Of a DNA stretch of 63,074 bases, positions 27,133-58,430 are shown piece after piece. The stretch comes from Candidatus Njordarchaeota archaeon (GTDB lineage: Archaea > Asgardarchaeota > Njordarchaeia > Njordarchaeales > Panguiarchaeaceae), in the NCBI GenBank assembly GCA_030587585.2, contig JAUQYS020000333.1, positions 1 to 63,074 of the forward strand. The letters run 5' to 3'. A program made the position numbers and the translations under genes. A model generated the notes under the pieces. It was not told where the DNA came from and did not search any database. It worked only from the letters and a program-made list of their open reading frames with translations. The first letter of the stretch is position 1; every line of letters begins with the position of its first letter.

Positions 27133-27536
27133 CGGATTTCACCATATATTAACAAAAAAATGCAACAGAAAAAAATACACCACTCATAAATAAGAATCAA
27201 TAGCCCCGCTACGCTTTTCTTTGCCACAAAAAAATAAAAAGAATCGAGCATCACATATATAAAAGCAATAAAGATACCACACAAAATGAGATCCATATGT
27301 TCTTCCTCAGGAGCAAAAAACCTGGCTACAACAACCACTAGAAACGCTACAATCTCCACCCACAACGAAAAAAACATAAGGAAATCTATACTCCTCAATA
27401 AAGATAATACATCCTTTTTCCATTCACTCATAATACAGGCCAAAACAATACCTAGCAAATACAAAGAATCAAAAAAAGCTTCAAAAATTATTTTTAATGG
27501 CGAAGTAGAATAATCCGAATCACCCAAGGATATCAC
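27117..27536 (-). CDS. polytopic membrane protein (139 aa; start GTG 27536 or TTG 27527)
   Basis: Four hydrophobic segments; GGGTGAT SD. Confidence 0.55.
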   Translation of the reverse strand: MISLGDSDYSTSPLKIIFEAFFDSLYLLGIVLACIMSEWKKDVLSLLRSIDFLMFFSLWVEIVAFLVVVVARFFAPEEEHMDLILCGIFIAFIYVMLDSFYFFVAKKSVAGLLILIYEWCIFFCCIFLLIYGEIRWKKK

Positions 27537-27654
27537 CCTTGATCAATGTAATGTAGATGTAGTGGCAACAAATACAGCCTCGAAGAAAGAAAAAAGAAAT
27601 AAAAGTCGCCGTGCGAAAAAATTTTTTCATACTTTTCACACCGCAAGAAGTGAA

Positions 27655-27873
27655 TTATTTGTTTTTCTTTTTCTCTACGAATGCATGTCGAAGAAATTTG
27701 TCTATTTCTTCGATGATCTCATCCACATCAACACTCGTATCATCGATACGGATCACGATTTTAAATTTCTTGAAAAGCCACTTCCCACTTATTAAAGAAT
27801 CTCTGCCCATCACATTGATACTGCCCCACCAAGCAGCGCAACCGCCCAGATCTTCCCATTTTTTCTTTCTCAT
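27655..27873 (-). CDS. hypothetical protein (72 aa)
   Basis: ATGA overlap with recombinase stop. Confidence 0.45.
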   Translation of the reverse strand: MRKKKWEDLGGCAAWWGSINVMGRDSLISGKWLFKKFKIVIRIDDTSVDVDEIIEEIDKFLRHAFVEKKKNK

Positions 27874-28532
27874 TTCTTCACACCCCCTCCTTGTTCGCTT
27901 TCTTTTTGTCTCAGTCCTATTGTATAGCCTAGTTTTTTTATTCTCCGTCTTAGCTGATCATAGCTAATGTCTATTCCATCACTACGCATAATTTTCCAGA
28001 TAGCTCTGATACTTAGCCCATCATATCGCTTAAGATATTTGATTATGGTGTTATTGCTCACTTTTGGCGGTCTTCCCTTTTGTTTTCCTGCTTCCCACGC
28101 AGCTAGTTGTCTTTCTCGTCTAAGCCGCAGTTCCATCTCTGCAAGCCACGAAAAAATTCGTATCAGCAAGTCTCTTATGTTCTCATCTTGTATTTGTAGC
28201 CATGTATCCTTAACAGACATTATTTTAACACCAAGCTCTTTTTCTAGTTTATCAAACAAACTAAAGATATCTCGGAGGTTATAGCCGAGCCTAGTGAAAT
28301 CAAAAACAATAACATATCTGACTATATCTTTTCCACCCGAGCTCAGAAAATTAATCATCTCCGCAGCCCCATCTCTTTTCATCCAAGAAACAACACGCCG
28401 CACGCCCTTATCAACAAAATATTTTATGACTTCTATGCCCTTCTCCTTAGCAAATTTTTCGATTGCGAGCTTCTGGACATTCTCATCTTGCTCTTTTGTC
28501 GAGACCCTTATATACGCAACTGCTCTCTCCAT
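27870..28532 (-). CDS. serine recombinase (resolvase/invertase family), 220 aa
   Basis: AVAYIRVSTKEQ catalytic-serine motif, resolvase core, C-terminal HTH-like LSIRAIWKIMRSDGIDISYDQLRRRIKKLG. Confidence 0.9.
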   Translation of the reverse strand: MERAVAYIRVSTKEQDENVQKLAIEKFAKEKGIEVIKYFVDKGVRRVVSWMKRDGAAEMINFLSSGGKDIVRYVIVFDFTRLGYNLRDIFSLFDKLEKELGVKIMSVKDTWLQIQDENIRDLLIRIFSWLAEMELRLRRERQLAAWEAGKQKGRPPKVSNNTIIKYLKRYDGLSIRAIWKIMRSDGIDISYDQLRRRIKKLGYTIGLRQKESEQGGGVKK

Positions 28533-28706
28533 ACATAGGCACCGGACAAAAACTTATGCACATTAATGTATGAAAAATAAAGATATTTAAGAATTTATAT
28601 ATTATCTCAGAGATATGAGGTCATCTACGGCTAACCAATATATACCAAACTTGATAAAGGTTACTTTTAATATCTAAATTTGAGTATTTTTTGTTGGTGC
28701 AAGAAG

Positions 28707-28994
28707 ATGTTTTGCAAAAAAGATGTGCTGGAAAAAAGCTTGGACTTTGCTAAAAAAGAACTGAAAGAAAAAGTCTATATCATAAAGGAATGGCTGGAGC
28801 TCATAAACCGCCAAGTCGAAAAAATCATAGAAAAAACCATAAAAAACAGGCCATGGCTCATAATAGGAATCGAACCACACAAAAGAAAAATCACAATGGC
28901 CCTCGTATCCATCTCGGACATACTGGATCAAATGTATTCTACAATTCTAGAAATAATAAACAACATCAAGGGCGAGGTGGAGGATGAATACTAG
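28707..28994 (+). CDS. hypothetical protein (95 aa)
   Basis: Plus-strand ORF trimmed to ATG after TTGGTG. Confidence 0.5.
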   Translation: MFCKKDVLEKSLDFAKKELKEKVYIIKEWLELINRQVEKIIEKTIKNRPWLIIGIEPHKRKITMALVSISDILDQMYSTILEIINNIKGEVEDEY

Positions 28995-29214
28995 AAAAAA
29001 ATTTTCCTATATCGCTTGTGGCGCCATCTCGATAATTCTCCTACTATGCATAATATACATCCATTGGACAATGTGGAATCTTATTGTTCTATCCCCCGCA
29101 ACATTAGTCCTCATAATACTGGCATATTGTATCTTAGCAATAATAATGATCCTCTTGGCATACCTCAGAAAGATAGAAAAACTCTTGGAGGAGAAAAAAC
29201 AATGTCCGCAATAG
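28984..29214 (+). CDS. small membrane protein (76 aa, 2 TM)
   Basis: GAGGTGGAGG SD directly upstream; hydrophobic. Confidence 0.55.
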   Translation: MNTRKKFSYIACGAISIILLLCIIYIHWTMWNLIVLSPATLVLIILAYCILAIIMILLAYLRKIEKLLEEKKQCPQ

Positions 29215-29500: not shown

Positions 29501-30088
29501 CTATTCAAAAATATTTTCCTGGAACCCTTGTTCCTCGACATAAATATCCGTCTCCTCGTCATAGACTTTATCTACCCTTTTCTCCTGGAACACAAGGTAG
29601 TATCTCGGAATTTTATGTGCGCCGCCCGCAGGTTTTACTCTAAAAACTACAGGATATGGTTTATAGATTAGATAAAGATGCTCATAGTATGTTCCGATTC
29701 TCCCAGCAATCCCCCATGCACCGTACGCTGTCAAAAGTTTTTCTGTCTGTTTTTCAAATCTTGAAAGAGGAAAAACATCGCCAACAGTTCCACGAGTATA
29801 TGTGCCCGCTCCTGAAAGTAGTGCACAGAAGCCTATTGGTTGTTGGTGTGGCTGGTTTGCTTTTATTATTCTGTATGATTTTCCTGAAATCGTCGGTTTT
29901 ACAAAGACAATATCATAGTTCTTTGGGTCTTTGTAGCAAGGTATTATTACTCTTTTTCTTCCTCTTCCTTTTTCTCCAAGAACAAACGCATTTATCTTAA
30001 ACGATGAGCCCTCATATACAGTTGGGTAAATGTGCTCATGAATAAAAAGATAGAACGGACCCTTCAGATTTTCATTATTTTCCGACAT
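29501..30088 (-). CDS. hypothetical protein (195 aa)
   Basis: Trimmed to MSENNEN; cassette 30094-30114. Confidence 0.6.
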   Translation of the reverse strand: MSENNENLKGPFYLFIHEHIYPTVYEGSSFKINAFVLGEKGRGRKRVIIPCYKDPKNYDIVFVKPTISGKSYRIIKANQPHQQPIGFCALLSGAGTYTRGTVGDVFPLSRFEKQTEKLLTAYGAWGIAGRIGTYYEHLYLIYKPYPVVFRVKPAGGAHKIPRYYLVFQEKRVDKVYDEETDIYVEEQGFQENIFE

Positions 30089-30123
30089 ATTTTTCACCAA
30101 TATTAAGAAAAAAATCATAAAGC

Positions 30124-30501
30124 CTATTGGATCTCTTCTTGGAGCTCTCGAACTATCTGAATCAATGTTTGAAGTTCTTCTAAAGTCATTGATATAAACC
30201 CATTAAAGTATATTTTATCTTTCAGAATCTCTATCTTCATTGACATCAATTCTGGGAAATTCAGAATATTTTTTGGATGCCCGATTATCTCTATTTTCGC
30301 TCTATCCTTATATTTCTCACCGATTATCGATACATCGTAGCCTAGATTCTCAACAAAAGATTTGAGCTTCATCAATTTTTCTATGGGAATTTTTAGACCT
30401 CCTCGCTGCTTTAAGTACTTTTCATAAAAATCGACTGCCGAACTAAAACTAATATACCACCGCTTTATTTCCCCATGTTCCTCATAGATAATCTCACTCA
30501 T
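30124..30501 (-). CDS. hypothetical protein (125 aa)
   Basis: Trimmed to MSEIIYE; cassette 30507-30529. Confidence 0.6.
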   Translation of the reverse strand: MSEIIYEEHGEIKRWYISFSSAVDFYEKYLKQRGGLKIPIEKLMKLKSFVENLGYDVSIIGEKYKDRAKIEIIGHPKNILNFPELMSMKIEILKDKIYFNGFISMTLEELQTLIQIVRELQEEIQ

Positions 30502-30539
30502 CATGATCACCAATTATAGGCGAAAAAAATGATTGATGA

Positions 30540-30766: not shown

Positions 30767-31054
30767 TCACCCGTCTAAATTGTTTTGCAAGAAATTTTTT
30801 ATTGCTTCCGCAGCTATCCGTTTTAATTTTTTTAACTCAATTTCATATTTGCCAACTTCCCTAAGGCATATATCTGCAGTATTATCATAAGAATCAAAGA
30901 CTGCTTCTAGTGATATGTTTGTTTCTTTTATTAGTTTTGCTAGCCCAGATATAAATTTCTGGACACGAATAACAAAATCCCGAAACCGTTTCATGTCCAA
31001 AAATTCTCCTAATGCTGCAAAAAACTCGGATATATCTGCTTCTTTTTCCGACAT
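30767..31054 (-). CDS. hypothetical protein (95 aa)
   Basis: Trimmed to MSEKEAD after GGTGGTGGT; cassette 31056-31080. Confidence 0.55.
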   Translation of the reverse strand: MSEKEADISEFFAALGEFLDMKRFRDFVIRVQKFISGLAKLIKETNISLEAVFDSYDNTADICLREVGKYEIELKKLKRIAAEAIKNFLQNNLDG

Positions 31055-31080
31055 ACCACCACCAATATTTAACGAAAAAA

Positions 31081-31407
31081 TTATAGTATAGACAGTATTA
31101 TGCGAAATATCTTTGGTCTTTTTGCAGATATATATGTAGCTATGGCATAATAACATACATATCTCATATTGGTCGGGATTAATATTGCTATGTTGCGTAT
31201 CTTTTCTACATCGCTGGCGGGTATTTTTATGTAATCAACAGCATATATCAACGTCCTAAGCAGATTTATTCGTGTCGGTAGATGAAAAATCTTAGCTTTC
31301 TTTGCGATAAGCTCAAAATCTTCATACCTAAACACAAAAATCTCATACCGAAATGGGGGGAGCGACTCAACTTCATCGATAATAATTTTCATTCCTTCTT
31401 CCGCCAT
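31081..31407 (-). CDS. hypothetical protein (108 aa)
   Basis: ORF; cassette 31414-31435. Confidence 0.55.
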   Translation of the reverse strand: MAEEGMKIIIDEVESLPPFRYEIFVFRYEDFELIAKKAKIFHLPTRINLLRTLIYAVDYIKIPASDVEKIRNIAILIPTNMRYVCYYAIATYISAKRPKIFRIILSIL

Positions 31408-31413
31408 TTTTCT

Positions 31414-31435
31414 TCACCATATATTAACGAAAAAA
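31414..31435 (-). promoter_or_regulatory. intergenic cassette copy (TTTTTTCGTTAATATATGGTGA)
   Basis: Near-consensus copy upstream of ATG 31407. Confidence 0.65.
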
Positions 31436-32035: not shown

Positions 32036-32392
32036 CTATCTCTCTTTTATGAGGTCTTTTATCATCTGCCAGAGTTGCTGTGGTGTTGTTTCGGAAAATA
32101 TGCTCAGATGCTCTACATAATCTTCGCAGTCTGTGGTTAGGTCATAAACAAATGTTCCATAATGATAACTATTGAAGAAAAGTAAGTTCTTATATCTGAA
32201 TGTTCCCTCATAGTTTAGTAATAGCTCCAGTAGTTCTTTTATAGTTTTTGCTTCAGTCGGCTCACCAACAAATCTTTCTGGCATATTCACAATAGCAAAA
32301 ATATCGCCATCAGCAAAATCAACCATACCGCTAAGCCACGGATTAGAATCAACAATCTTCTTAATCTTTTCCAATAGCTCTTTCTTATTCAT
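32036..32392 (-). CDS. hypothetical protein (118 aa)
   Basis: ORF; cassette 32399-32420. Confidence 0.6.
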   Translation of the reverse strand: MNKKELLEKIKKIVDSNPWLSGMVDFADGDIFAIVNMPERFVGEPTEAKTIKELLELLLNYEGTFRYKNLLFFNSYHYGTFVYDLTTDCEDYVEHLSIFSETTPQQLWQMIKDLIKER

Positions 32393-32420
32393 TTGGGTTC
32401 ACCACATATTGACGAAAAAA

Positions 32421-32845: not shown

Positions 32846-33139
32846 TCACTTCGTTTTTTTTTCTGGGTCGCATATTTTGAATCCCATCTCTGTGAAGATA
32901 TTAACAAGTTCTATCAGCTCTTCTCTGGTGTATTCTTTATAGGTATAGTCCTTCACAAATTCATATAGATCATCATCACCACTCCACACAATAAATTCTG
33001 CTTTCCACTTTTTGGGAATCCTCCTAAACTCGCAGACTAACATTGCATCATCCATTTCCAAACCAAAGCAAAGACCAATATCTATCCAAAACCAAGAACT
33101 CAACATATCGATAAGTTTTTCCTTCAGATCCTCACCCAT
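32846..33139 (-). CDS. hypothetical protein (97 aa)
   Basis: Trimmed 12 nt; cassette 33145-33167. Confidence 0.55.
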   Translation of the reverse strand: MGEDLKEKLIDMLSSWFWIDIGLCFGLEMDDAMLVCEFRRIPKKWKAEFIVWSGDDDLYEFVKDYTYKEYTREELIELVNIFTEMGFKICDPEKKTK

Positions 33140-33174
33140 CAATATCACCATACATGAGTGAAAAAAAGAGAAAT

Positions 33175-33612
33175 TTACAATACTGAGTTAAACTTATTTT
33201 TAAACACTACCCTTTGAGCCGGCGGCAACCGGCTCGTCTCAGGAGTCGTTATTGGACTAACAACAGGATAACCGTACGCCTGGACGCTTATTATACTGCT
33301 TATCAGCAGTACTGGTTTAGAAAGTTCTTTGTTTAATTCTCTTATTTTTTGTACCAATTCAATCCCCTGCTCCTCAGGCACAAATTCTGTCTTTACGATC
33401 GTGACCGTATTTACAGTTTTTATTACTTTTTCTTTTGGTGCAGCTTTGAGAATCTTTGCTAGTTCTACGTTTCCAAGTAAAATGGAGCCGTCGTCAAATT
33501 TCAATTCATGAGGTGATGTGTTTATTAAGTATGCTGAATCAGTCTCAAGAACATCAACATCGAGATTAGCAAATTGCTTAAATAAATTTTTAATTTTGAT
33601 AACCTCGTTCAT
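33175..33612 (-). CDS. hypothetical protein (145 aa)
   Basis: Trimmed 12 nt; cassette 33618-33640. Confidence 0.6.
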   Translation of the reverse strand: MNEVIKIKNLFKQFANLDVDVLETDSAYLINTSPHELKFDDGSILLGNVELAKILKAAPKEKVIKTVNTVTIVKTEFVPEEQGIELVQKIRELNKELSKPVLLISSIISVQAYGYPVVSPITTPETSRLPPAQRVVFKNKFNSVL

Positions 33613-33617
33613 ATTTT

Positions 33618-33640
33618 TCACCAATATTATGCGAAAAAAA
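33618..33640 (-). promoter_or_regulatory. intergenic cassette copy (TTTTTTTCGCATAATATTGGTGA)
   Basis: Upstream of ATG 33612. Confidence 0.65.
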
Positions 33641-34669
33641 TTATGTTTTGTTTAGGAATGCTTGTAGTGCTGCGTTTAGTTCTGGGTCCTCGATTATTTG
33701 TTTTATTTTGTTTAGTGTTTTGGTTTTGTTTTCTATTTGTTGTGCTATTTGTTGTGCTATGTTTTTGGCGTCGTTTTCTGATGTTGCTGCTATTGTTCGT
33801 GCGTTTGGATGTCCGTAGGATTGTCTGCCGAACGGATTGTTTCCGATTAGTTCTTGGATTGTTCTCAGTTCTATGTCCCATCTTCTTATTGCTATAGCTA
33901 CAAATTGATTTGTTTGATTTGATAATGCATAGCCGACGGCGTAGGGAACATCGTTCTCTGTTGCTACTTTTTCTAGAACCTTGAACGCCCATGCTGATGG
34001 TAATTGTTCGTTTACAAGCACCACATTATCAAACAATCCAAAATCATTTACTGATGGGATCTCATCCGCATATATCCGCAGTTTGTCGGTATTATCGGCA
34101 TATCTTATTGCGTCCTCAATATTTTTTCTGACGAGGACATCTAGGCCTAGTGCTGCTTCATAAAGTTCTTTGTATTTTTCTTGGGGGATATACTTCAATA
34201 CGGTTGGGTCTCTATCACAAATTGCCCCAATGAAGACTAGGTCTTTGTTTGGTTCTTTCGATACGAGAAGATCTAGATGATAGGATGACGGCATAAAGTA
34301 TATATTCATAAATGCGGGAAAATTCTTGAGGAACGGTATGCTTGTTTCATGATGATCGATATAGAACATATATACTCTACTCATTGTTCTTGCTTGATGA
34401 AAGATTGTATGCAATGTGGACATCCATTTGTACGGATTCTTAACATCTACCGCAATATCAACAATATAGATATGATTATACTGATAGAACGAAAATATTT
34501 CTGGGATACCAGCAAAACCATTAGGCCCAGTCTCAGGAAACTTCGAAATAATATTGGTCCTAGGAACATCAAATAATTCGGAAAGAAGAACGCCTGCCGC
34601 AACACCATGACCATCAAAATGGCAAACAATAGCCGTTTTCTCAGGAGAAAAATACTTTTTATTTCTCAT
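33641..34669 (-). CDS. DHH family phosphoesterase (RecJ/NrnA-like), 342 aa
   Basis: VCHFDGHGVAAG, YIVDIAVD and FYIDHHETS motifs in the canonical order. Confidence 0.7.
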   Translation of the reverse strand: MRNKKYFSPEKTAIVCHFDGHGVAAGVLLSELFDVPRTNIISKFPETGPNGFAGIPEIFSFYQYNHIYIVDIAVDVKNPYKWMSTLHTIFHQARTMSRVYMFYIDHHETSIPFLKNFPAFMNIYFMPSSYHLDLLVSKEPNKDLVFIGAICDRDPTVLKYIPQEKYKELYEAALGLDVLVRKNIEDAIRYADNTDKLRIYADEIPSVNDFGLFDNVVLVNEQLPSAWAFKVLEKVATENDVPYAVGYALSNQTNQFVAIAIRRWDIELRTIQELIGNNPFGRQSYGHPNARTIAATSENDAKNIAQQIAQQIENKTKTLNKIKQIIEDPELNAALQAFLNKT

Positions 34670-34674
34670 AGTTT

Positions 34675-34697
34675 TCACCATACATTAACGAAAAAAA
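34675..34697 (-). promoter_or_regulatory. intergenic cassette copy (TTTTTTTCGTTAATGTATGGTGA)
   Basis: Upstream of ATG 34669. Confidence 0.65.
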
Positions 34698-35044: not shown

Positions 35045-35086
35045 TTTTAGCACCATGTATTACCCAAAAAAAAGAAAGAAATGTTA

Positions 35087-47481: not shown

Positions 47482-47508
47482 CTTTTTTCACCATATATTA
47501 TCGAAAAT

Positions 47509-49924: not shown

Positions 49925-49961
49925 TTTTTCCCACCCGCCTATCAAAAAAAGCCAAAAAAAA

Positions 49962-50642: not shown

Positions 50643-50691
50643 ATTAGTCAAACTCCTCACCACTGAAAAAAGAAAAAAAGAGTCATTTAAA

Positions 50692-50850: not shown

Positions 50851-52536
50851 TCACCATATATTACCAAGAAATTGTTTAGTTTGTTTTGGGTGAAGTCCTT
50901 GTGCTCTATGCGTGTCGAGAAGCCATATTCGACATAACGATACTCCTGGAACATGCAGAGATCTTGTTCTATGCTCATTATGACTAAAAACAATGTCTTG
51001 ATCACGCAACACAATAAAATAGATACCATGCTGGCGTTCATACATGCTGGAAAGACGAAACATTTGCCAGATGTCAAAATCATCAATAGTAACAGAATTA
51101 CGATCATTATGCATTATTTTGAGAAACGTCTCAAGATCAATTGGGGAGTTGCTCGTAGGATCTAGATAGGCGTAACCGATATTGAGATAATCAACAGTGT
51201 ATCTCATAGCTTTTTCATCGCTGGGTTTGGGCAATTGAATACCGACGGTTCTTAGAACCTCTGATATCTTTTCTCCCGTCCATGTTTCCGCCAAACTGGA
51301 CAAATGCCAATCCAAAAACATATTATTTTTATCTGGAAACAAAGCTTGTTCATTTCGTGCCGTCAAATTTGCTGGTATTCCGATATAAGACACATAGTGG
51401 TCCCCTATCGTAACTTCGATTCGTTGTTCTATATTGATTAATTTTTTCCATAGGTTATTACCAGAATCCGACGACACATTTCGGAGTTTCCTATTTTTCC
51501 GTAAAACTATTTTAGCTATATTGCAGAACAGATCCATAACATCTCCTAAATAATATCTCACTCTATGACACTCTTCTGTGCCAAGATAATTACATGCAAC
51601 AAATAGATTTTTGATACGATGCCGCATTAAAATCTGCCAAAAATCTTTAAGCCCAAAAATTATGCTACGTGCTCCTTTGGGGTTATAGCTTTCTTCCTTC
51701 ATTCCCAAAAAGGCAGACACAAACTCTTCGAAAGAGACCTCATCTCTAAGACCTACATACCTATATAGGTCCTTTATTCGCTTCCGAAAATTCTTTCTTG
51801 CAAAGTATGCTTTCCTAAACAGCCATACTCCCCGATAAACCGCAAACTTGGGGGCATAAGCCGCAAAGTAGAAAGCACCAAGAAAATTCGCAATTATATG
51901 AATCAAATAGTCATAATATTTGCTGAGTACACGTTGATAAAACTGATCTAAACTTATCGTATCCACAAGCGTAAATATTATGTCGCCTTGCACTCTGATA
52001 TTCTTGTGGAACGGTATTTTCCCATCGATCTGGTACCAATGCATATCGAAACCCATCCAGTTTTTAATGTGCCAATACGTTATTGGCCAGTCTTCCTTCC
52101 AAATTCTGAAGTCAAGCCGCCAAGGAATTCTATGGCAGAAAAATCGATACTCGTCATCCAACCCAACAACAAAGAAGACGTTATAAAAGTTTGCTACTTT
52201 TTGTTCCAAATACCATTCACCGTTCTCCCCCCTAACTCTCGTATAATACGCAAAGCGTGCATATTCGGGGGGAACAAAATATACGGCCTTAAGCACTATA
52301 TATCTCTCATCTATTTTTTCTTGCTTCATGATATCGTCAGTTTTTGGCGAAAGAAACCATGCCTTTGTATATCTGGATGTTGGTCTCGCCTGCCTAAAAG
52401 TATTTCTGTGATTCTCAGCCGCAAACATATCAAAAAGCCTAAAACACAGCCTATTTCTGTTCTTGATGAGATTATATAATTCTTCTATGCGCTCTTCGGG
52501 AGATAAAAACCTATATTGCTCCAATTCTTTTTGCAT
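50851..52536 (-). CDS. hypothetical protein (561 aa)
   Basis: Long ORF trimmed 12 nt; cassette 52542-52565. Confidence 0.65.
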   Translation of the reverse strand: MQKELEQYRFLSPEERIEELYNLIKNRNRLCFRLFDMFAAENHRNTFRQARPTSRYTKAWFLSPKTDDIMKQEKIDERYIVLKAVYFVPPEYARFAYYTRVRGENGEWYLEQKVANFYNVFFVVGLDDEYRFFCHRIPWRLDFRIWKEDWPITYWHIKNWMGFDMHWYQIDGKIPFHKNIRVQGDIIFTLVDTISLDQFYQRVLSKYYDYLIHIIANFLGAFYFAAYAPKFAVYRGVWLFRKAYFARKNFRKRIKDLYRYVGLRDEVSFEEFVSAFLGMKEESYNPKGARSIIFGLKDFWQILMRHRIKNLFVACNYLGTEECHRVRYYLGDVMDLFCNIAKIVLRKNRKLRNVSSDSGNNLWKKLINIEQRIEVTIGDHYVSYIGIPANLTARNEQALFPDKNNMFLDWHLSSLAETWTGEKISEVLRTVGIQLPKPSDEKAMRYTVDYLNIGYAYLDPTSNSPIDLETFLKIMHNDRNSVTIDDFDIWQMFRLSSMYERQHGIYFIVLRDQDIVFSHNEHRTRSLHVPGVSLCRIWLLDTHRAQGLHPKQTKQFLGNIW

Positions 52537-52541
52537 CACTT

Positions 52542-52565
52542 TCACCACTACTTAACGAAAAAAAA
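52542..52565 (-). promoter_or_regulatory. intergenic cassette copy (TTTTTTTTCGTTAAGTAGTGGTGA)
   Basis: Upstream of ATG 52536. Confidence 0.65.
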
Positions 52566-52580: not shown

Positions 52581-53006
52581 TTATGCATTTTTCTTTATCT
52601 CTGCGACGGACACGCCATAAGCTTCTAATTCTTTCTGGAAACACCTAAGATGCAAATCCAGAATAGAATACCAGCCCCACATAAAATATATGTTTGATAG
52701 ACATGCATCAACAGCATAGCGAGAATTAAGCTCTCTCTCAGAAATAATCCCGCTATCATACTTTATTCTCGTCCAAATCACCTTATCTCCTGCTTTGAAT
52801 CGAAAGAGAGTATATGCCCTAACGGACCAGCCTAAGCTATGCTTCTTCACAGCATAAACCTCCAACGCCATAATAATAGAATTCGAATTCTCTTCTTTCT
52901 CAACAAAACGCCAGACCAATGCTCCTTCTGGTTTCTCTCCAAGAACAACAACAGATTTATCTTCTTCAAGACGAGAAGGCTTAAACATATATTTGCCTTT
53001 AAACAT
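52581..53006 (-). CDS. hypothetical protein (141 aa)
   Basis: ORF; cassette 53014-53037. Confidence 0.6.
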   Translation of the reverse strand: MFKGKYMFKPSRLEEDKSVVVLGEKPEGALVWRFVEKEENSNSIIMALEVYAVKKHSLGWSVRAYTLFRFKAGDKVIWTRIKYDSGIISERELNSRYAVDACLSNIYFMWGWYSILDLHLRCFQKELEAYGVSVAEIKKNA

Positions 53007-53037
53007 AGGCTTTTCACCACCTCTTAACGAAAAAAAA

Positions 53038-53340: not shown

Positions 53341-53997
53341 CTATTCTTGCCACACCAAAAAGACAAAAACCCTCGTTTTAGATATCTCGTTTCTATATTT
53401 ATTTTCAAGTTCTTCTATCTTGTTGATGATTCTGCGGCATAGAGATTCTTCAGAAGTGAAGCCAAAGCAGATGTAGGCCTCATCATAGTCATAATAGGCA
53501 GAAATATACCATCTACCACAAAAAGACCGTACATCATAGCTCCAGTATAAAGAGTACTCAGGAATTCCATAACCCGGCTCATTGCTGATTTGCGCTTCTG
53601 GGATCCTTAAACCTAAAGAAGATTCTATCCTCGCCTTGGCGTGATGCAATACTAACTCAACTACTTTTTCGCCAAGACTTGTACGCCAAAGATCGCTCAA
53701 TATCTCGTCCCAAACTTCTCGAGCCTCAGCAGTCAGGATATCTTCTGGGTCTTCAAGAGCGGTAAATTCAAAAGCTTTTATTGCCAGCAGTATTGTTCTC
53801 TTTATCTCCAACCTACATGCGTCAAAATCTACTGAATCCTCAAAAATATCTAGCAATCCTCTGGCTATTTCTTTTCTCGCCTCTTTCTCATATTTTGCTC
53901 TCGCATTAGGCATATCGACAAGAAATGCAGCATATCTAAGCTCGCAGATTTTTCCTTCCTCAAGAAAATATAATATATCTTTAACTATTTCTCTCAT
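53341..53997 (-). CDS. hypothetical protein (218 aa)
   Basis: Trimmed to MREIVKD; cassette 54003-54024. Confidence 0.6.
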   Translation of the reverse strand: MREIVKDILYFLEEGKICELRYAAFLVDMPNARAKYEKEARKEIARGLLDIFEDSVDFDACRLEIKRTILLAIKAFEFTALEDPEDILTAEAREVWDEILSDLWRTSLGEKVVELVLHHAKARIESSLGLRIPEAQISNEPGYGIPEYSLYWSYDVRSFCGRWYISAYYDYDEAYICFGFTSEESLCRRIINKIEELENKYRNEISKTRVFVFLVWQE

Positions 53998-54037
53998 CCG
54001 TGTCACCGTATATAGCGAAAAAAAGTAAAACAAAAAA

Positions 54038-54619
54038 TCAGAACACGAGAACCTTCGTATATATCTGCGAGGAGAAATCTATAACACATATCATATACTT
54101 TGGGGCCGCTTTCTCAACTATATCTCGAACAAAAACAATTCCTCTTGTTGGTGTCCCCTCAAGAACAAAAATATGCATGTCTTTTGGCTTCATAGTATAA
54201 CTATCCTGATACGATATCTTTAGATCAGTCTTCTTTATCCGCTCCAAGAAATCTCTCCGATTACTAAAAAGCAAAACATGAATCAAAACACCCAAATATG
54301 CCAGTCTCTCAACAGGAATAGTCTCTTTTTTCGAAACAAACGCCACACGAGGAACTGGACACTTCTTAGACTTAAATATTTCTATCGAAGAGATTTCATA
54401 CTCATCAATTATCGTCTTTAGTTCTTCGAGAACACCAGAAAGAAGAATATTCTCATCCTCTCTGCCGCTATATTGTAACAACTTATTAAATAACACAACA
54501 GCCATATCTCCGGCCGATTTAGTTTCATAAACCTCTGATCCTGATGCACCTTCTTCATCCAAAACTACATATTTAACAGTACGGGACACAACACCAGCAA
54601 TTTCATTCTCCTTTTCCAT
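54038..54619 (-). CDS. hypothetical protein (193 aa)
   Basis: Trimmed to MEKENEI after GGTGA, removing the overlap with 54654-55019. Confidence 0.6.
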   Translation of the reverse strand: MEKENEIAGVVSRTVKYVVLDEEGASGSEVYETKSAGDMAVVLFNKLLQYSGREDENILLSGVLEELKTIIDEYEISSIEIFKSKKCPVPRVAFVSKKETIPVERLAYLGVLIHVLLFSNRRDFLERIKKTDLKISYQDSYTMKPKDMHIFVLEGTPTRGIVFVRDIVEKAAPKYMICVIDFSSQIYTKVLVF

Positions 54620-54653
54620 CCGACTCACCATAAAAACCCAAAAAAATAGAATT

Positions 54654-55305: not shown

Positions 55306-55660
55306 CTCCGTTCACCTCTGACTCATCCGAAAATTGTGGAATCTTCATTAGTGCGTCTGAGAATAGACGTATTAATCTTAGTAGCTGTTCCTCGTCGGGA
55401 TATTCTGTCAGATCATCCCAAAAAGAAAAATCAGATATTACAATTTCCGCAATGTTGATGTGGTAGTTTATATCGGGATTATCAAAAAACAGCAACAATC
55501 TAATATCGCAATTCTTTAGTACCTCGGCAACAACAAAAAACTTATTATCCCTACTGTCAATCATATACATATCAACATTATACATCTTCCTAATCCAAAA
55601 ACAAGTTTTAAAGTGTTTCGCCAATATGGCCCTAACCTTATCACATTCATTGTCATCCAT
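55298..55660 (-). CDS. hypothetical protein (120 aa)
   Basis: Trimmed to MDDNECD after GGTGGGTGA. Confidence 0.55.
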   Translation of the reverse strand: MDDNECDKVRAILAKHFKTCFWIRKMYNVDMYMIDSRDNKFFVVAEVLKNCDIRLLLFFDNPDINYHINIAEIVISDFSFWDDLTEYPDEEQLLRLIRLFSDALMKIPQFSDESEVNGDG

Positions 55661-55691
55661 ATTCACCCACCACAGATATATCTGAAAAAAA

Positions 55692-56512: not shown

Positions 56513-56866
56513 TTACCACGTATACACAACAATAAATCCACAGGATACCCATACCAACAATTGCCATAACCAGCCCTCCATAATCCTCCATTCATGTTTG
56601 CTCAGTTCTTCTTGGGACTCTTCTAATGAGATATCCATCCTCGAAGCAACAATAAGTGGTTTAATCAGCGGCACCAGTATGTGTTTAATCAAGTTCTGTT
56701 TCTGATTCATAACTTTATCATAAGGAATCCCTTCCTCAGCGGCGTCTTCAATGGACTCAACAACGGGGATATACTCATTTATATCCTTTCCAAGAACACG
56801 ATTAATTATTTCAGCATAGCGACTAAATGAATTGAATAAGCCATCATTATCACCATGTAGGTACAT
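56513..56866 (-). CDS. hypothetical protein (117 aa), start codon inside the palindrome
   Basis: Trimmed to MYLHGDND; ATG 56864-56866 lies within CATGTAGGTACATA; no SD. Confidence 0.5.
   Translation of the reverse strand: MYLHGDNDGLFNSFSRYAEIINRVLGKDINEYIPVVESIEDAAEEGIPYDKVMNQKQNLIKHILVPLIKPLIVASRMDISLEESQEELSKHEWRIMEGWLWQLLVWVSCGFIVVYTW
56853..56866. promoter_or_regulatory. 14-bp palindrome variant CATGTAGGTACATA
   Basis: 13 of 14 match to the consensus, 5 nt after the stop of 56871-57239. Confidence 0.5.
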
Positions 56867-56870
56867 AGTT

Positions 56871-57239
56871 CTATTCGTTCGCATTCTGCATCATCAAAAT
56901 TGTCCATTTGAGCGAATCAACCGTTTCGGCTATTTCCTCTAGAAGCCTTTTTATTTCTTCTGCTTTTCCAATTATTCCGTCTATTGCTTCTTTTTCTGCC
57001 GATTTGTTTTTCAGTCCAGCTACTAGGTCAAGTATGCTTACTGATTGTTGGCCGAATAGATCATTATGTAGTTCTTTTGGAATAACTAAGATACGGCCAC
57101 CGACATAGATTCTTATGATCGAATCATCAAATTTTTTGAGAAAATCGTTCAATGCTTTGTCGGGATCTTGATCTTCCTCAAGAACAAGTTTTTCTCTTTT
57201 CACAACACCCAATATTTCTACGATTATTTCCCTTTTCAT
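56871..57239 (-). CDS. hypothetical protein (122 aa)
   Basis: Trimmed 12 nt; cassette-like 57245-57268. Confidence 0.55.
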   Translation of the reverse strand: MKREIIVEILGVVKREKLVLEEDQDPDKALNDFLKKFDDSIIRIYVGGRILVIPKELHNDLFGQQSVSILDLVAGLKNKSAEKEAIDGIIGKAEEIKRLLEEIAETVDSLKWTILMMQNANE

Positions 57240-57272
57240 ACGGACCACCAAAAATAAACTGAAAAAAATGAA

Positions 57273-58403
57273 TTATAGTAATATGTTTTCTTGTCTTAGT
57301 GTTTCCCTAAATTCGTAGAAGAATTCCGACAAAAATTTCTTTCTCTTCGATTGTCTGCGTATCCATCTGTACAGGAAAGAATATTTTTGAAGATGCCTAT
57401 TCAAAGCTACTGCGATCCTATGGGGCTGTCTCCCGAGAAAAAGTCCAGCTTCGTAAAGCGTTCTTGTTCTAAGAAAAGTTAAAAGCATCAATGTATCAGG
57501 ATTCTTTGCTATATGCTCAATATTTACTTCTGATAGCGAGTACTGCAGAAAATATTTCACAAAATTTGCGAATATTTTTTTTCGTACATCAAGAACTTTT
57601 TCTTTAACACTACTGAGATCCGATAATGTAATGGGCATATATGCTCGGCCATTTCTTCTTGTTAAAGCCGGTAGTGATAGTGTCCAGCCAAGAAAGCGTC
57701 TGATAATAGGTATATACGACTGCTGTAATGGCTTCTTATTTTTAGCATCATATATCATCTCGATTATTTCTGTAATTCTAACAAAGATATCCAGGGAAAC
57801 ACTGTCTATTAGCGGACACTTCATCCTACTTTGAGGAAATGCTTTGCTGAAAGCCATAAATAGCTCAGAGAAAAGCGTAGCCAAGCGCCAGAGATCTGCA
57901 CTTTTTTTCGCCGCCAAGTTTTTATAAATAAAAACCCTGAAAACATCATCCATACATAAAAATAAGTGCCTATAACCAAGCATAGATGTTATTCCGTCTT
58001 GGATCATCTCATAAAGAGAACGACAACCGATTATTTTTTTATAGCCCCATCGCTTTCTAACAAACCCAACAGCCCGCATATACAGCAAAGCAATAAAAAT
58101 AGCCTGAAGAAGAGGAACTGATACGTAACATTCTTTGGCAAACCCTCGTAATTCTAATATCTGAACAGGAGAAAAACATATCGCATATCTATTTTTCTCA
58201 TAGGCGTTATTAAGAATTTTACCTAACGGTTCCCAAACACCCTTCTCTCTAAATACAAGATATTCACTCATAAACTGTGCTACATGCCAAGCATATCTCT
58301 CAAACGGAAACGGAGCACGTGCAGCTATATCCAATAACCGTCCTTCAGAATCAGGAGAATTTTTTCGCCAGAAAGAAAAATATTTGCCAAAACGATACAT
58401 CAT
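57273..58403 (-). CDS. hypothetical protein (376 aa)
   Basis: Long ORF; cassette 58407-58430. Confidence 0.65.
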   Translation of the reverse strand: MMYRFGKYFSFWRKNSPDSEGRLLDIAARAPFPFERYAWHVAQFMSEYLVFREKGVWEPLGKILNNAYEKNRYAICFSPVQILELRGFAKECYVSVPLLQAIFIALLYMRAVGFVRKRWGYKKIIGCRSLYEMIQDGITSMLGYRHLFLCMDDVFRVFIYKNLAAKKSADLWRLATLFSELFMAFSKAFPQSRMKCPLIDSVSLDIFVRITEIIEMIYDAKNKKPLQQSYIPIIRRFLGWTLSLPALTRRNGRAYMPITLSDLSSVKEKVLDVRKKIFANFVKYFLQYSLSEVNIEHIAKNPDTLMLLTFLRTRTLYEAGLFLGRQPHRIAVALNRHLQKYSFLYRWIRRQSKRKKFLSEFFYEFRETLRQENILL

Positions 58404-58406
58404 TTC

Positions 58407-58430
58407 TCACCACCTATTGACGAAAAAAAA
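58407..58430 (-). promoter_or_regulatory. intergenic cassette copy (TTTTTTTTCGTCAATAGGTGGTGA), last copy before the 58.4-62.9 kb operon
   Basis: Upstream of ATG 58403. Confidence 0.65.

What the first reader, a model, noticed from the sequence alone, without database searches (positions are those of the whole stretch)
27139..58430. About 40 copies of a 22-24 nt cassette punctuating nearly every gene between 27 and 58 kb
On the coding (minus) strand almost every start in 27.1-58.4 kb (and in 0.1-4.1 kb) is preceded by T(6-8)-CG-yTAA-nnnn-(T/G)GGTGA-N4-6-ATG. Examples:
- TTTTTTCGTTAATATATGGTGA (31414-31435)
- TTTTTTTCGCATAATATTGGTGA (33618-33640)
- TTTTTTCGTTAAGTAGTGGTGA (41317-41338)
- TTTTTTTTCGTCAATAGGTGGTGA (58407-58430)
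I located 42 copies, including variants, by manual scan. The 3' GGTGA is a Shine-Dalgarno site; translating it produces the spurious 'MVxxM' N-termini in the ORF track. The T-run resembles an archaeal oligo-T terminator. However, the invariant CG (rare in this AT-rich DNA) and the TAA-centred box are conserved beyond what either role needs. The AT box ends only about 10-12 nt from the start codon. That is too close for a canonical archaeal TATA box (centred about 26 nt upstream of the TSS) if the SD is to be transcribed. The main alternatives are a per-gene promoter read by the element-encoded minimal RNAP (compare the upstream conserved sequence before each pGKL killer-plasmid gene, or poxvirus and mimivirus per-gene promoters) or an RNA processing or re-initiation signal.
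Basis: seen in the sequence. Interest (0 to 1): 0.85.

Follow-up and report, generated by a model that had tools for sequence, protein, structure and literature searches.

The report
Per-gene terminator-promoter-ribosome-site cassette
About 45 copies of a 22-30 nt signal (a run of T, then CG, an AT-rich box and a ribosome-binding site) fill the short gaps between genes of an archaeal virus-like element that encodes its own small RNA polymerase. They most likely end one transcript and start the next, but no transcript ends have been mapped.

Summary
The motif T(5-8)-C-G/A-yTAA-tatrT-GGTGA-N5-6-ATG occurs only on the coding (minus) strand. A search with the 22-mer consensus, allowing 3 mismatches, found 18 copies against 0 expected. 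43 gene starts carry a T-run 8-14 nt before GGTG. That is 34 of 43 spacers of 25 nt or more in 27-58 kb, so "nearly every gene" is overstated.

GGTGA is the general Shine-Dalgarno site. The CG/TAA/T(-1) box carries about 7 bits that appear only next to a T-run.

New evidence:
- Sense-strand T>=6 runs are purged from ORFs of the cassette region (6 observed, 21 expected). They are enriched in the 10.5-27 kb membrane/secreted-protein (putative virion) module.
- A tRNA-Tyr gene is flanked by the same elements.
- There is no RNA structure.
- The box is too close to the start codon for canonical TATA geometry, and no downstream Met rescues it.
- The exact cassette is repeated in no other public genome searched.
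- ORF 7461-10541 is a fused beta-beta' two-barrel RNA polymerase with the DFDGD motif.

Best reading (about 0.5): an oligo-T terminator fused to a compact non-canonical promoter, with the transcription start at or near the G of GGTGA, probably read by the element's own polymerase. Host-polymerase and RNA-level alternatives remain open.

The parts
58401..58430 (-). full cassette TTTTTTTTCGTCAATAGGTGGTGAgaaATG (376-aa gene)
   Evidence: box 7.8 bits
57237..57268 (-). cassette, CA variant, GGTGG SD
   Evidence: 5.3 bits
56480..56510 (-). full cassette TTTTTTCGCTAATAAGTGGTGA
   Evidence: 9.0
55658..55691 (-). cassette, CA variant, 13-nt spacer
54617..54646 (-). T-run-GGG variant, degenerate box
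53995..54024 (-). cassette TTTTTTTCGCTATATACGGTGA (box shifted 1 nt)
53004..53037 (-). full cassette TTTTTTTTCGTTAAGAGGTGGTGA
52534..52565 (-). full cassette TTTTTTTTCGTTAAGTAGTGGTGA (561-aa ORFan)
50649..50679 (-). T-run + SD, weak box, TTG start
49922..49950 (-). T-run + GGTGG, no box
49641..49671 (-). T-run-CG + SD, box replaced by T-rich
49123..49153 (-). CA variant CACCTAACATGAGGTGA
48826..48855 (-). cassette TTTTTTTGCTTAATATTGGTGA before a 34-aa mini-ORF
48721..48751 (-). full cassette, CA variant
   Evidence: 7.0
48359..48386 (-). short variant TTTTTTCTTAACATTGGTGA
48102..48132 (-). cassette TTTTTTTGATAATATATGGTGA
47812..47843 (-). full cassette TTTTTTTCGCTAAGTAGTGGTGA
47479..47507 (-). 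T4 variant TTTTCGATAATATATGGTGA
46313..46342 (-). full cassette TTTTTTCGCTAATCTATGGTGA, 284-nt spacer
45407..45439 (-). full cassette, CA variant (AAA ATPase gene)
   Evidence: 8.8
43707..43737 (-). CA variant, shifted box
43347..43376 (-). full cassette before a 22-aa mini-ORF
41308..41338 (-). full cassette TTTTTTCGTTAAGTAGTGGTGA
40255..40286 (-). full cassette, CA variant
   Evidence: 8.5
38784..38812 (-). cassette-like TTTTTTT-GG-GATAATAT-GGTAA-GGGGATC directly upstream of tRNA-Tyr; T-run end to tRNA 5' end is 22 nt
38708..38783 (-). tRNA-Tyr (GTA), C1-G72, short variable arm, encoded CCA
38698..38707 (-). T8-CG directly after the tRNA 3' CCA (terminator without box)
37706..37732 (-). short variant TTTTTCCTAACATTGGTGA
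36240..36271 (-). GGG variant TTTTTTTGGGCTATATATGGTGC (gene for a small protein with an N-terminus resembling ribbon-helix-helix proteins, judged by eye only)
35042..35073 (-). GGG variant TTTTTTTTGGGTAATACATGGTGC (paralogue of the 36242 gene)
34667..34697 (-). full cassette TTTTTTTCGTTAATGTATGGTGA, 156-nt spacer
33610..33640 (-). cassette TTTTTTTCGCATAATATTGGTGA
33137..33167 (-). CA variant
32390..32420 (-). full cassette TTTTTTCGTCAATATGTGGTGA
31405..31435 (-). full cassette, exact consensus TTTTTTCGTTAATATATGGTGA
31052..31080 (-). cassette TTTTTTCGTTAAATATTGGTGG
30499..30529 (-). cassette TTTTTTTCGCCTATAATTGGTGA
30086..30114 (-). short variant TTTTTTTCTTAATATTGGTGA
27130..27160 (-). full cassette TTTTTTTGTTAATATATGGTGA (last of the main block)
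   Evidence: 8.4
4015..4044 (-). T-run-CG + SD, shifted box
3105..3135 (-). cassette TTTTTTTAGTTAATTAATGGTGA
   Evidence: 8.2
795..822 (-). T5-CG variant before a 32-aa mini-ORF
642..674 (-). cassette TTTTTTTCGCCTAACATGAGGTGA
7461..10541 (-). 1026-aa fused beta-beta' two-barrel RNA polymerase (GDKxxSRxGxKG at 450-460, DFDGD at 779-783); candidate reader of the cassette

Best explanation
The cassette is a compact intergenic expression module made of three abutting parts.

1. An oligo-T run (T6-8, usually followed by C-G/A) terminates the transcript of the upstream gene. It does so in the archaeal / Pol III / ASFV manner, without a hairpin.
2. The 9-11 nt box (C-G-y-T-A-A-t-a-t-r-T), together with the T-run, forms a short non-canonical promoter. 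It abuts the transcription start, most likely the first G of GGTGA (a T(-1)/G(+1) initiator).
3. GGTGA-N5-6-ATG is the Shine-Dalgarno site and start codon, on a leader of about 10 nt.

The result is about 40 one- to three-gene transcription units in 27-58 kb and 0.6-4.1 kb.

Shown: the anatomy of the motif, its strand and position specificity, T-run avoidance inside cassette-region genes, the absence of RNA structure, the incompatibility with canonical geometry, and the presence of the polymerase gene.
Inferred: termination at the T-run, initiation at GGTGA, and which polymerase reads it.
For: - The motif is strand-specific and far above chance.
- It fills whole 26-47 nt spacers, with the T-run starting at or just after the stop codon.
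- Box information exists only next to T-runs.
- T(-1) occurs in 35/43 cassette genes against 21/54 other SD genes (p = 3e-5).
- T>=6 on the sense strand of cassette-region ORFs: 6 observed against 21.3+-4.3 in codon shuffles (z = -3.6). T>=5 and A-runs are not depleted. The 10.55-27.1 kb module has 34 against 15.7 (z = +5.4).
- About 40 successive same-strand terminators require re-initiation after each.
- The tRNA-Tyr gene is preceded by T7-GG-GATAATAT-GGTAA and followed by T8-CG. The unit therefore also serves a gene that is not translated.
- Canonical TATA at about -25 from GGTG is seen at six other genes of the same element (36793, 36080, 31965, 25360, 24338, 5182). Only 11/43 cassette genes have a TATA-like 8-mer there.
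- The box used as a TATA would start transcripts inside ORFs that lack a downstream Met.
- There is no conserved RNA fold, and no excess of sigma-70 promoters or hairpin terminators.
- The exact cassette is not repeated in any GTDB genome, IMG/VR contig or metagenome contig.
- The RNAP has both catalytic signatures.
- Precedents: ASFV has a 19-nt early promoter motif about 10 bp upstream of the TSS and ~7-U terminators enriched in early genes (PMC7163114). Phage P23-45 single-chain two-barrel RNAPs have their own promoter motifs (PMC10770324).
Against: - No transcript 5' or 3' ends are available.
- The box looks like an ordinary archaeal TATA. With CG in front, it occurs at canonical distance from SD-less starts in relatives L159 and L160 and at window genes 5170 and 15327. 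Host TBP could bind it.
- The T-run centre lies about 25 nt from the ATG and from the tRNA 5' end. That is also what a host promoter for leaderless RNAs would give.
- The RNAP gene has at most a degenerate cassette and lies in a tight operon after T-run-rich genes.
- Relatives at 41-45% RNAP identity do not share the full cassette. L001 and L003 have ACAAAAATTTTTGG instead. Co-variation of motif and polymerase therefore cannot be demonstrated.
- T-run depletion in relatives is weak or inconclusive.
Confidence: 0.5

Rival explanations
1. Host-polymerase cassette. The T-run, with the AT-rich 3' end of the upstream gene, doubles as a TATA-like TBP site about 25 nt upstream of the ATG. Host RNAP then makes leaderless or very short-leader mRNAs. 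The box is a promoter-proximal AT-rich element. The SD serves only read-through transcripts. The T-run also terminates the upstream gene.
For: - T-run end to ATG is 21-22 nt in 25/43 cassettes, and 22 nt to the tRNA 5' end.
- The 14 nt upstream of T-runs are 76% A+T, against 63.5% at other gene ends.
- Oligo-T termination is the established behaviour of archaeal RNAP (PMC7163114 discussion).
- The RNAP operon (4.4-10.5 kb) is itself T-run-poor, as expected if a T-sensitive host enzyme must express it first.
- ATG is used in 39/43 cassette genes against 40/54 others (p = 0.06).
Against: - GGTGA is at least as conserved in cassette genes as elsewhere, yet it would not be transcribed.
- T7CG is a poor TATA, and no purine-rich BRE lies upstream.
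- The distances T-run->GGTG and GGTG->ATG vary independently (r = +0.12). Nothing holds T-run->ATG constant.
- There is no pyrimidine/purine initiator at the ATG, whereas T(-1)G(+1) at GGTGA is conserved.
- Genes most likely to be host-transcribed (recombinase, wHTH regulator, genes with canonical TATA) are T-run-rich.
Confidence: 0.2
2. RNA-level signal on polycistronic transcripts. The U-run and box mark sites of endonucleolytic processing (for example by aCPSF1-type RNases), or act as an unstructured A/U-rich ribosome-loading or translation-enhancing leader. Promoters lie only in the few long spacers.
For: - All genes are on one strand with very short spacers.
- About eight longer spacers could hold promoters.
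- U-run avoidance inside ORFs would also be expected for a U-run-specific cleavage signal.
Against: - The same unit precedes a tRNA gene, so it is not a translation signal.
- There is no conserved secondary structure.
- The T-run stays fixed next to the box even when the upstream stop codon is 74-284 nt away and has its own T-runs.
- Positional conservation of C, G, TAA and T(-1) exceeds what an unstructured leader needs.
Confidence: 0.12
3. Nothing beyond terminator plus SD. T-runs terminate and GGTGA is the SD. The box is only AT-rich filler, shaped by composition or by copying of spacers, with no function of its own.
For: - The box alone occurs at background rates elsewhere: 33 minus against 27 plus hits at >=8 bits.
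- About 18 of 48 T-run/SD sites have a weak or shifted box.
Against: - About 7 bits at fixed positions, including C and G in an AT-rich context.
- Zero information at the same positions in 54 other SD genes.
- Flanks of the cassettes are unrelated, so recent copying is excluded.
- Downstream genes would be silent after about 40 terminators without re-initiation.
Confidence: 0.08
4. The box is a canonical BRE/TATA promoter used at normal geometry, giving transcripts that start about 10 nt inside the annotated ORFs, or antisense transcripts.
For: Sequence likeness of CG+TTAATATAT to the TATA elements at 15327 and 5170 and in L159 and L160.
Against: - 20/43 genes have no Met within 30 codons, and there is no peak of downstream Met.
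- There are no plus-strand genes or motifs.
- The BRE position is occupied by a T-run.
Confidence: 0.03

Closest known systems
Early transcription units of nucleocytoplasmic large DNA viruses (ASFV early promoter motif plus poly-T terminators; vaccinia early promoter plus T5NT)
   Same: - A short virus-specific promoter motif close to the TSS before individual genes.
- Termination at a bare run of about 7 T without a hairpin.
- Terminators concentrated in one gene class and under-represented in late genes (PMC7163114). The window shows the same split.
- The element carries its own RNA polymerase.
   Different: - Here the polymerase is a single ~1000-aa fused chain, not a multisubunit enzyme with dedicated factors.
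- The mRNAs carry an SD rather than a cap.
- Terminator and promoter are fused into about 18 nt.
- The host is archaeal.
- No TSS or transcript 3' ends have been mapped.
Upstream conserved sequence of yeast cytoplasmic linear plasmids (pGKL / virus-like elements) read by an Rpb2::Rpb1 fusion polymerase
   Same: - A fused beta-beta' polymerase of about 1000 aa (PMC2919709).
- A short conserved motif before each gene.
- The ASFV early promoter motif is reported as related to these promoters.
   Different: - The UCS is ATNTGA (from my own knowledge, not checked here), which is not the cassette sequence.
- No oligo-T partner is known to me.
- The host is eukaryotic and cytoplasmic, and replication is protein-primed.
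Promoters of phage single-chain or non-canonical two-barrel RNAPs (P23-45 gp64/gp96, YonO, crAss-like gp66, AR9/phiKZ nvRNAP)
   Same: - A divergent two-barrel RNAP encoded by a prokaryotic virus.
- Its own promoter motifs within -30..+1, and a dedicated terminator motif for one enzyme (PMC10770324).
- The PDB profile search hits the P23-45 enzyme's beta' barrel.
   Different: - Bacterial hosts and different motifs.
- Those promoters head operons rather than almost every gene.
- Homology to the window's RNAP is limited to the two barrels (E about 1e-3).
Canonical archaeal gene boundary: oligo-T terminator, BRE/TATA about 23-26 bp upstream of the TSS, short leader with GGTGA-type SD
   Same: - T-run, an AT-rich TATA-like octamer and a GGTGA SD are all present.
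- The same element has six genes with exactly this canonical layout.
   Different: - In the cassette the TATA-like box ends 1 nt from the SD and its centre is about 16 nt from the ATG.
- A T-run occupies the BRE position.
- The whole unit is compressed into about 30 nt.
T7-type promoter (-17..+6)
   Same: An ~18-bp specificity region, an AT-rich -4..-1 segment, and initiation on G (TATA|GGGAGA compared with TATAT|GGTGA). This is an analogy from my own knowledge.
   Different: T7 uses an unrelated single-subunit polymerase family and has no fused terminator.

Membership tests
Shine-Dalgarno ribosome-binding site | Purine-rich match to the 16S rRNA 3' end, 4-9 nt upstream of start codons, including operon-internal genes | tested here: met
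   GGTG(A) lies 4-7 nt before about 95 gene starts, including overlapping genes. Complementarity to ...AUCACCUCC-3' is from general knowledge.
Archaeal / Pol III-type oligo-T terminator | Run of at least 5-6 T on the non-template strand just downstream of a gene, with no hairpin needed | tested here: met
   The T-run starts 0-20 nt after stop codons and directly after the tRNA CCA. There is no structure.
Archaeal / Pol III-type oligo-T terminator | The signal works alone and is therefore avoided inside genes on the sense strand | tested here: met
   T>=6: 6 observed against 21.3 expected in cassette-region ORFs (z = -3.6). T>=5 and A-runs are not depleted.
Archaeal / Pol III-type oligo-T terminator | RNA 3' ends map within the T-run | not testable with these tools
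   No transcript data are available.
Canonical archaeal BRE/TATA promoter | AT-rich TATA octamer | tested here: met
   The box consensus TTAATATA(T) resembles the TATA elements at 15327 and 5170 and in L159 and L160.
Canonical archaeal BRE/TATA promoter | Purine/A-rich BRE directly upstream of the TATA | tested here: not met
   The upstream positions are T6-8 followed by CG.
Canonical archaeal BRE/TATA promoter | TATA about 23-26 bp upstream of a TSS that precedes the start codon | tested here: not met
   The box centre is about 16 nt from the ATG, so the predicted TSS is 8-13 nt inside the ORF with no rescuing Met. Only 11/43 cassette genes have a TATA-like 8-mer at -29..-22 from GGTG.
Bacterial intrinsic terminator / sigma-70 promoter | GC-rich hairpin plus T-run; -35/-10 hexamers | tested here: not met
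   13 hairpin terminators against 11.0 expected, and 54 promoter-like sites against 63.7 expected.
Virus-specific promoter read by a virus-encoded RNAP (NCLDV / VLE / phage nvRNAP type) | Element encodes an RNAP with catalytic motifs | tested here: met
   Invariant DFDGD and GDKxxSRxGxKG. Rpb2_6 is hit by 4/5 family members and Rpb1_2 by 3/5. PDB beta and beta' barrels are hit in the correct order. The AlphaFold model was too poor to use (pLDDT 51.5).
Virus-specific promoter read by a virus-encoded RNAP (NCLDV / VLE / phage nvRNAP type) | Conserved motif at a fixed short distance from mapped TSSs, absent from host promoters | tested here: inconclusive
   The fixed distance to the SD/ATG is shown. 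The exact motif is not repeated in any of 185,579 species genomes. TSSs are unmapped and the host genome was not examined.
Virus-specific promoter read by a virus-encoded RNAP (NCLDV / VLE / phage nvRNAP type) | The polymerase initiates on the motif in vitro or in vivo | not testable with these tools
   Needs biochemistry.
pGKL upstream conserved sequence | ATNTGA hexamer before each ORF | not tested
   I did not search the window for ATNTGA. The cassette consensus (...TATRTGGTGA) does not contain it. This UCS consensus comes from my own knowledge.

The most novel reading that the evidence does not exclude
This contig, binned with an Asgard (Njordarchaeota) MAG, and its rare relatives are archaeal virus-like elements with an autonomous transcription system. 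The system consists of a minimal fused beta-beta' RNA polymerase that recognises an ~18-nt T-run/CG/TAAT promoter abutting the start site and stops at bare T6-8 runs. Most early or accessory genes would then be their own transcription unit, as in poxviruses, ASFV and yeast killer plasmids. Papers in the searched library dated 2017-2021 state that no known archaeal virus encodes an RNA polymerase.
Probability: 0.35. Interest if true: 0.85.

Novelty: new variant of a known kind. Interest (0 to 1): 0.7.

Why it matters
Reviews and the Asgard-virus study in the searched library state that no known archaeal virus encodes its own RNA polymerase (PMC5569661; 10.1101/2021.07.29.453957). I found nothing later in that library, but I cannot exclude a more recent report.

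This element has such a polymerase. It also has a sharply defined, highly repeated candidate promoter/terminator that can be synthesised and tested directly. That gives a minimal two-barrel transcription system with about 40 natural promoter variants and a simple T-run stop signal.

If the polymerase does read the cassette, this would be a prokaryotic counterpart of the per-gene early transcription units of nucleocytoplasmic large DNA viruses, in an element associated with the archaeal lineage closest to eukaryotes.

Two observations are useful whichever enzyme is responsible. One is the fusion of terminator, start signal and SD into about 30 nt. The other is the split of the genome into T-run-free and T-run-tolerant gene sets. 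Both help with annotating such elements and with predicting temporal gene classes from sequence alone.

Tried and rejected
- Exact-pattern scans of IMG/VR, GTDB genomes and metagenome contigs found only scattered single chance hits and no second carrier.
- tblastn of the RNAP against phage records found nothing.
- A search for RNAP relatives in IMG/VR found nothing.
- PHROGs and Pfam scans of most module and cassette-region proteins returned nothing useful.
- Homologue searches with the 313-aa and 561-aa ORFs returned only the query itself. No phylogenetic footprinting was therefore possible, and no alignment was available to test whether the module is a virion module.
- AlphaFold on the RNAP with 5 sequences gave pLDDT 51.5, so I ran no fold search.
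- I looked for compensation between the T-run->SD and SD->ATG spacings and found none.
- I looked for a conserved downstream Met that would rescue canonical TATA geometry and found none.
- I looked for conserved RNA structure and found none.
- I looked for a fixed TATA upstream of the T-run. There is only modest AT enrichment, and 26% of cassettes have a TATA-like 8-mer there.
- I looked for terminal repeats or circular overlap of the contig and found none.
- T-run depletion in relatives is in the same direction but weak.
- A bacterial host was rejected. The tRNA-Tyr has C1-G72 and a short variable arm (that these are archaeal/eukaryotic traits is from my own knowledge). Relatives carry the archaeo-eukaryotic primase large subunit and PolB.

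Full report
CONTEXT

The window is a whole 63,074-bp contig deposited in a 'Candidatus Njordarchaeota archaeon' MAG. The 1026-aa ORF is identical to NCBI MEX0569039.1, locus Q6363_007785.
- All convincing genes lie on the minus strand, and G+C is about 37%.
- About 95 gene starts have GGTG(A) 4-7 nt upstream, including genes that overlap their neighbour. GGTGA is therefore the general Shine-Dalgarno site of the system.
- The host is archaeal. The encoded tRNA-Tyr has a C1-G72 first pair and a short variable arm. That these are archaeal/eukaryotic traits is from my own knowledge.
- Relatives carry the archaeo-eukaryotic primase large subunit and PolB.
- Sigma-70 promoters and hairpin terminators are not above chance.

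Yes.
- The 22-mer consensus TTTTTTCGYTAATATRTGGTGA with up to 3 mismatches has 18 matches, all on the minus strand, against 0.00 expected.
- A loose definition (T>=5 ending 8-14 nt before GGTG) gives 58 minus and 0 plus.
- 43 of these precede called genes.
- 48 precede an SD plus start codon with at least 20 codons, which includes three mini-ORFs.
- In the 24 copies with the modal 11-nt spacer: C(-11) 19/24, G(-10) 19/24, Y(-9) 21/24, Y(-8) 21/24, A(-7) 18/24, A(-6) 21/24, T(-5) 17/24, R(-2) 20/24, T(-1) 22/24.
- The 54 SD genes without a T-run carry no information at all upstream of GGTG.
- The box scores at least 4 bits at 22/48 T-run sites against 1/74 other SD sites.

The box is real.

Three statements need trimming:
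- The cassette precedes 34 of about 60 genes in 27.1-58.4 kb. That is 34 of 43 spacers of 25 nt or more; the rest are operon-internal or have other motifs.
- CG is the commonest dinucleotide after the T-run, not an invariant one: CG 27, CA 14, CT 10, GG 7 of 77.
- CpG is not depleted in this DNA (observed/expected 0.97).

ANATOMY

The cassette is the spacer. Typical distances from the upstream stop codon to the next ATG are 26-47 nt. The T-run often starts on the base after TAA.

The parts are modular:
- T-run+CG occurs alone after stop codons. Examples are directly after the tRNA's CCA, after the 25486 stop, and at 37144 and 48891/48882.
- The box occurs without a full T-run at 50855, 47492 and 32821.
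- In long spacers (74-284 nt) one T-run follows the stop and a second sits immediately before the box. The T-run therefore belongs both to the 3' end of one unit and to the 5' element of the next.
- The spacings T-run->GGTG (mode 11) and GGTG->ATG (10-11) vary independently (r = +0.12).
- No secondary structure is conserved (alifold energy 0).
- The box alone occurs elsewhere at background rate on both strands. Specificity comes from the combination with the T-run and/or GGTGA.

NEW EVIDENCE ON FUNCTION

(1) T-run avoidance. I compared observed runs with codon-order shuffles.
- ORFs of the cassette region contain 6 sense-strand T>=6 runs against 21.3+-4.3 expected (z = -3.6; 0 of 300 shuffles as low).
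- T>=5 runs (74 against 63) and A-runs are not depleted.
- By segment, T>=6 observed against expected is 0/1.8 (0.2-4.4 kb), 1/2.2 (4.4-10.55 kb, the RNAP operon), 1/3.9 (29.5-35.4 kb) and 5/17.5 (37.1-58.4 kb).
- The other segments give 34/15.7 (10.55-27.1 kb, signal-peptide/membrane proteins and the recombinase side), 10/3.0 (35.4-37.1 kb) and 13/6.2 (58.4-63 kb).

The constraint is strand-specific and has a sharp threshold at six T. That is the behaviour expected of a signal that works on its own during transcription, namely an oligo-T terminator. It parallels ASFV, where poly-T terminators are over-represented in early genes and under-represented in late genes, and vaccinia early genes (PMC7163114).

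(2) About forty such signals in series on one strand would silence everything downstream unless transcription restarts after each. The box is the only conserved candidate for that restart.

(3) The tRNA-Tyr gene is preceded by TTTTTTT-GG-GATAATAT-GGTAA-GGGGATC and followed by CCA-TTTTTTTT-CG.
- The distance from the T-run end to the tRNA 5' end is 22 nt, the same as to the ATG of mRNA cassettes.
- A unit that serves a gene which is not translated argues against a purely translational role.

(4) Geometry.
- Six other genes of the same element have a clear TATA octamer centred 24-27 nt upstream of GGTG. These are three paralogues at 36793, 36080 and 31965, plus 25360, 24338 and 5182.
- In this system the normal TSS therefore lies at or just before the SD. 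This matches the short leaders (median 16 nt) and the 23-bp TATA-TSS distance of Thermococcus kodakarensis (PMC4247193).
- Cassette genes lack this. Only 11/43 have a TATA-like 8-mer there, and the 14 nt upstream of the T-run are merely AT-enriched (76% against 63.5%).
- If the box itself were the TATA, transcripts would begin 8-13 nt inside the ORF. 20/43 genes have no Met in the next 30 codons, and there is no preferred position for one.

(5) T(-1) before GGTGA occurs in 35/43 cassette genes against 21/54 others (p = 3e-5).
- The pair T/G is a pyrimidine/purine initiator.
- T at -1 also breaks the extended SD complementarity (..GAGGTGA) often seen in operon-internal genes. That fits if the bases upstream of GGTGA are not in the mRNA.

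THE POLYMERASE

ORF 7461-10541 and its five closest relatives share two invariant motifs: GDKxxSRxGxKG (450-460, the beta / Rpb2 domain-6 signature) and DFDGD (779-783, the beta' metal-binding loop).
- Pfam Rpb2_6 is hit by 4/5 members and Rpb1_2 by 3/5, in that order along the chain.
- A family profile hits the beta' barrels of Pol V, the phage P23-45 tape-measure-fused RNAP and bacterial beta', and also the beta barrel.
- The family is rare. Among 1.84 billion representative proteins, 15 match at E<=1e-30.
- It occurs on 30-83 kb contigs next to PolB, PriL, RecA-like ATPase, ERCC4 and RNase H genes.
- The structure model was too poor to use.

RELATIVES

None carries the window's cassette.
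- At 41-45% RNAP identity, L001 and L003 (55% G+C) have a different recurrent spacer motif, ACAAAAATTTTTGG, at variable distance from the SD.
- L161 has TTTTTTCG in both of its spacers. L004 and L001 have TTTTTCGG after stop codons.
- L163 has TTTTTT-ATTG-CG-TAATTGA-GGTGA.
- L159 and L160 have CG-(A/T)ATAATAT(AT) about 25 nt upstream of SD-less starts, which is an ordinary leaderless TATA layout.

The oligo-T (+C/G) element is therefore family-wide. The box is TATA-like in sequence. Only the window fuses them to the SD.

CG and TAAT recur in some relatives, but not in the cassette arrangement. It also keeps the host-polymerase alternative alive.

VERDICT ON MECHANISM

Most likely (about 0.5): terminator + compact non-canonical promoter + SD, with the TSS at or next to the G of GGTGA, read by the element's own RNAP.

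The assignment to the viral enzyme rests on four points, all inferential:
- the non-canonical geometry;
- the contrast with the element's own canonical promoters;
- the uniqueness of the motif;
- the fact that the genes most likely to be host-transcribed (serine recombinase 27870-28532, wHTH regulator 61593-62855, and the genes with canonical TATA) tolerate T-runs, while cassette genes do not.

Alternatives:
- Main rival (about 0.2): host RNAP using the T-run region as a TATA-like site for leaderless RNAs.
- RNA processing or translation signals on polycistronic RNAs (about 0.12).
- A functionless box (about 0.08).

Whichever enzyme is involved, the T-run as a stand-alone stop signal and the existence of two transcription regimes in the element are the best-supported inferences.

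NOVELTY

Per-gene promoter/terminator systems tied to a virus-encoded two-barrel RNAP are known from poxviruses, ASFV, yeast killer plasmids and some phages.

What is new here is the archaeal setting. Papers in the searched library state that no known archaeal virus encodes an RNAP. Also new are the fusion of terminator, promoter-like box and SD into about 30 nt, and the particular motif. I rate it a new variant of a known kind. It is of clear interest but has no experimental support yet.

Noticed in passing
window 2172-2185, 4909-4922, 15345-15358, 22968-22981, 25415-25428, 39174-39187, 43307-43320, 53314-53327, 56854-56867, 60086-60099: A second dispersed motif: the palindrome TATGTA-NN-TACATA. 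There are 10 copies with up to 1 mismatch, against 0.24 expected. Several lie in spacers of genes that lack the T-run cassette (starts 53301, 43281, 25351, 15327, 2109). Two abut the SD directly (56854, 53314). It is a candidate operator or a second promoter class.
   Followed up: partly
window 10546-29499, 35431-37100, 58431-63074 versus 1-10545, 29500-35430, 37101-58430: The element splits into T-run-tolerant gene sets (T>=6 enriched, z +3 to +5) and T-run-free gene sets (7 observed against about 25 expected). The RNAP operon belongs to the T-run-free set. This suggests two transcription regimes.
   Followed up: yes
window 38708-38783 (tRNA-Tyr), 37745-38599 (RNA ligase), 823-2271 (PolyA_pol-type nucleotidyltransferase), 38799-39689 (PAPS-reductase-like): An archaeal-type tRNA-Tyr sits next to an RNA ligase. 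A class-II (bacterial/eukaryotic-type) CCA-adding/poly(A) polymerase-family enzyme lies elsewhere on the contig. Together they look like a tRNA repair or replacement kit, as used by phages against anticodon nucleases.
   Followed up: no
window 62933-63059 (also 47859, and inverted copies at 62540, 62477, 48448, 48420): TTTTTTGGAATA is repeated four times within 130 nt at the sense-strand start of the contig. Inverted copies (ATTCCAAAA) occur nearby and around 48.4 kb. This could be an origin or a regulator-binding array. The contig has no terminal repeat or end overlap.
   Followed up: partly
window 36781-36830, 36070-36125, 31955-32010: Three near-identical upstream regions (catacatatttttttatatttttttatcgtttttgtattGGTGAtatcaTTG) head paralogous TTG-start genes. 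Each has a strong canonical TATA (TTTATATT) centred about 25 nt before GGTGA. These are the clearest host-type promoters in the element.
   Followed up: partly
window 15370-15396 and 5205-5233: A shared 19-nt sequence, TATTACGCTATTAATAWAT (CG + TATA-like box), lies after the stops of two module genes. It is about 28 nt (5170 gene) and about 41 nt (15327 gene) upstream of the SD.
   Followed up: no
window 27870-28532 and 28533-29500: A serine recombinase (Resolvase domain, E = 1e-27) follows a 474-nt spacer. The adjacent 28.6-29.5 kb is T-rich on the minus strand and has plus-strand ORFs (28680-28994, 29016-29498). This may be the only divergently transcribed unit.
   Followed up: no
window about 34738-34783: The only good hairpin-plus-T-run in a spacer: GGGAAGTCCGAAGGGAAAATCTTCGCTTCCCTTTTT, upstream of the 34669 cassette.
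   Followed up: no
L161 1660-6045 (protein P0003): One RNAP relative is 1461 aa long and carries faint intein/LAGLIDADG Pfam hits. This suggests an intein inserted in the polymerase gene.
   Followed up: no
L001 3495, 9961, 13171, 13803, 14631, 18311, 22698; L003 equivalents: The 55% G+C relative has its own recurrent 12-14 nt palindromic spacer motif, (A)CAAAAATTTTTG(G). It puts a T5 run on both strands and lies 6-28 nt upstream of SDs.
   Followed up: partly
window 36242/35044 and 59601/32392 gene starts: There are two pairs of paralogous small genes. One pair has N-termini MQVVSIRLPREV.. and MRVVSIRIPENI.., which resemble ribbon-helix-helix proteins by eye only (no domain search was run). 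The other pair both start MNKKELLEK... The first pair uses the T-run-GGG variant of the cassette.
   Followed up: no
window cassettes at 41-58 kb versus 27-35 and 43-48 kb: The 3' half of the box falls into two flavours. ...TAAGTAGT/AGGT/AAGT occurs at 41321, 47825, 52546, 53018, 56493 and 58411. ...TAATATAT/ATGT/GTAT occurs in most of the others. These may be temporal classes or the result of local spread.
   Followed up: no
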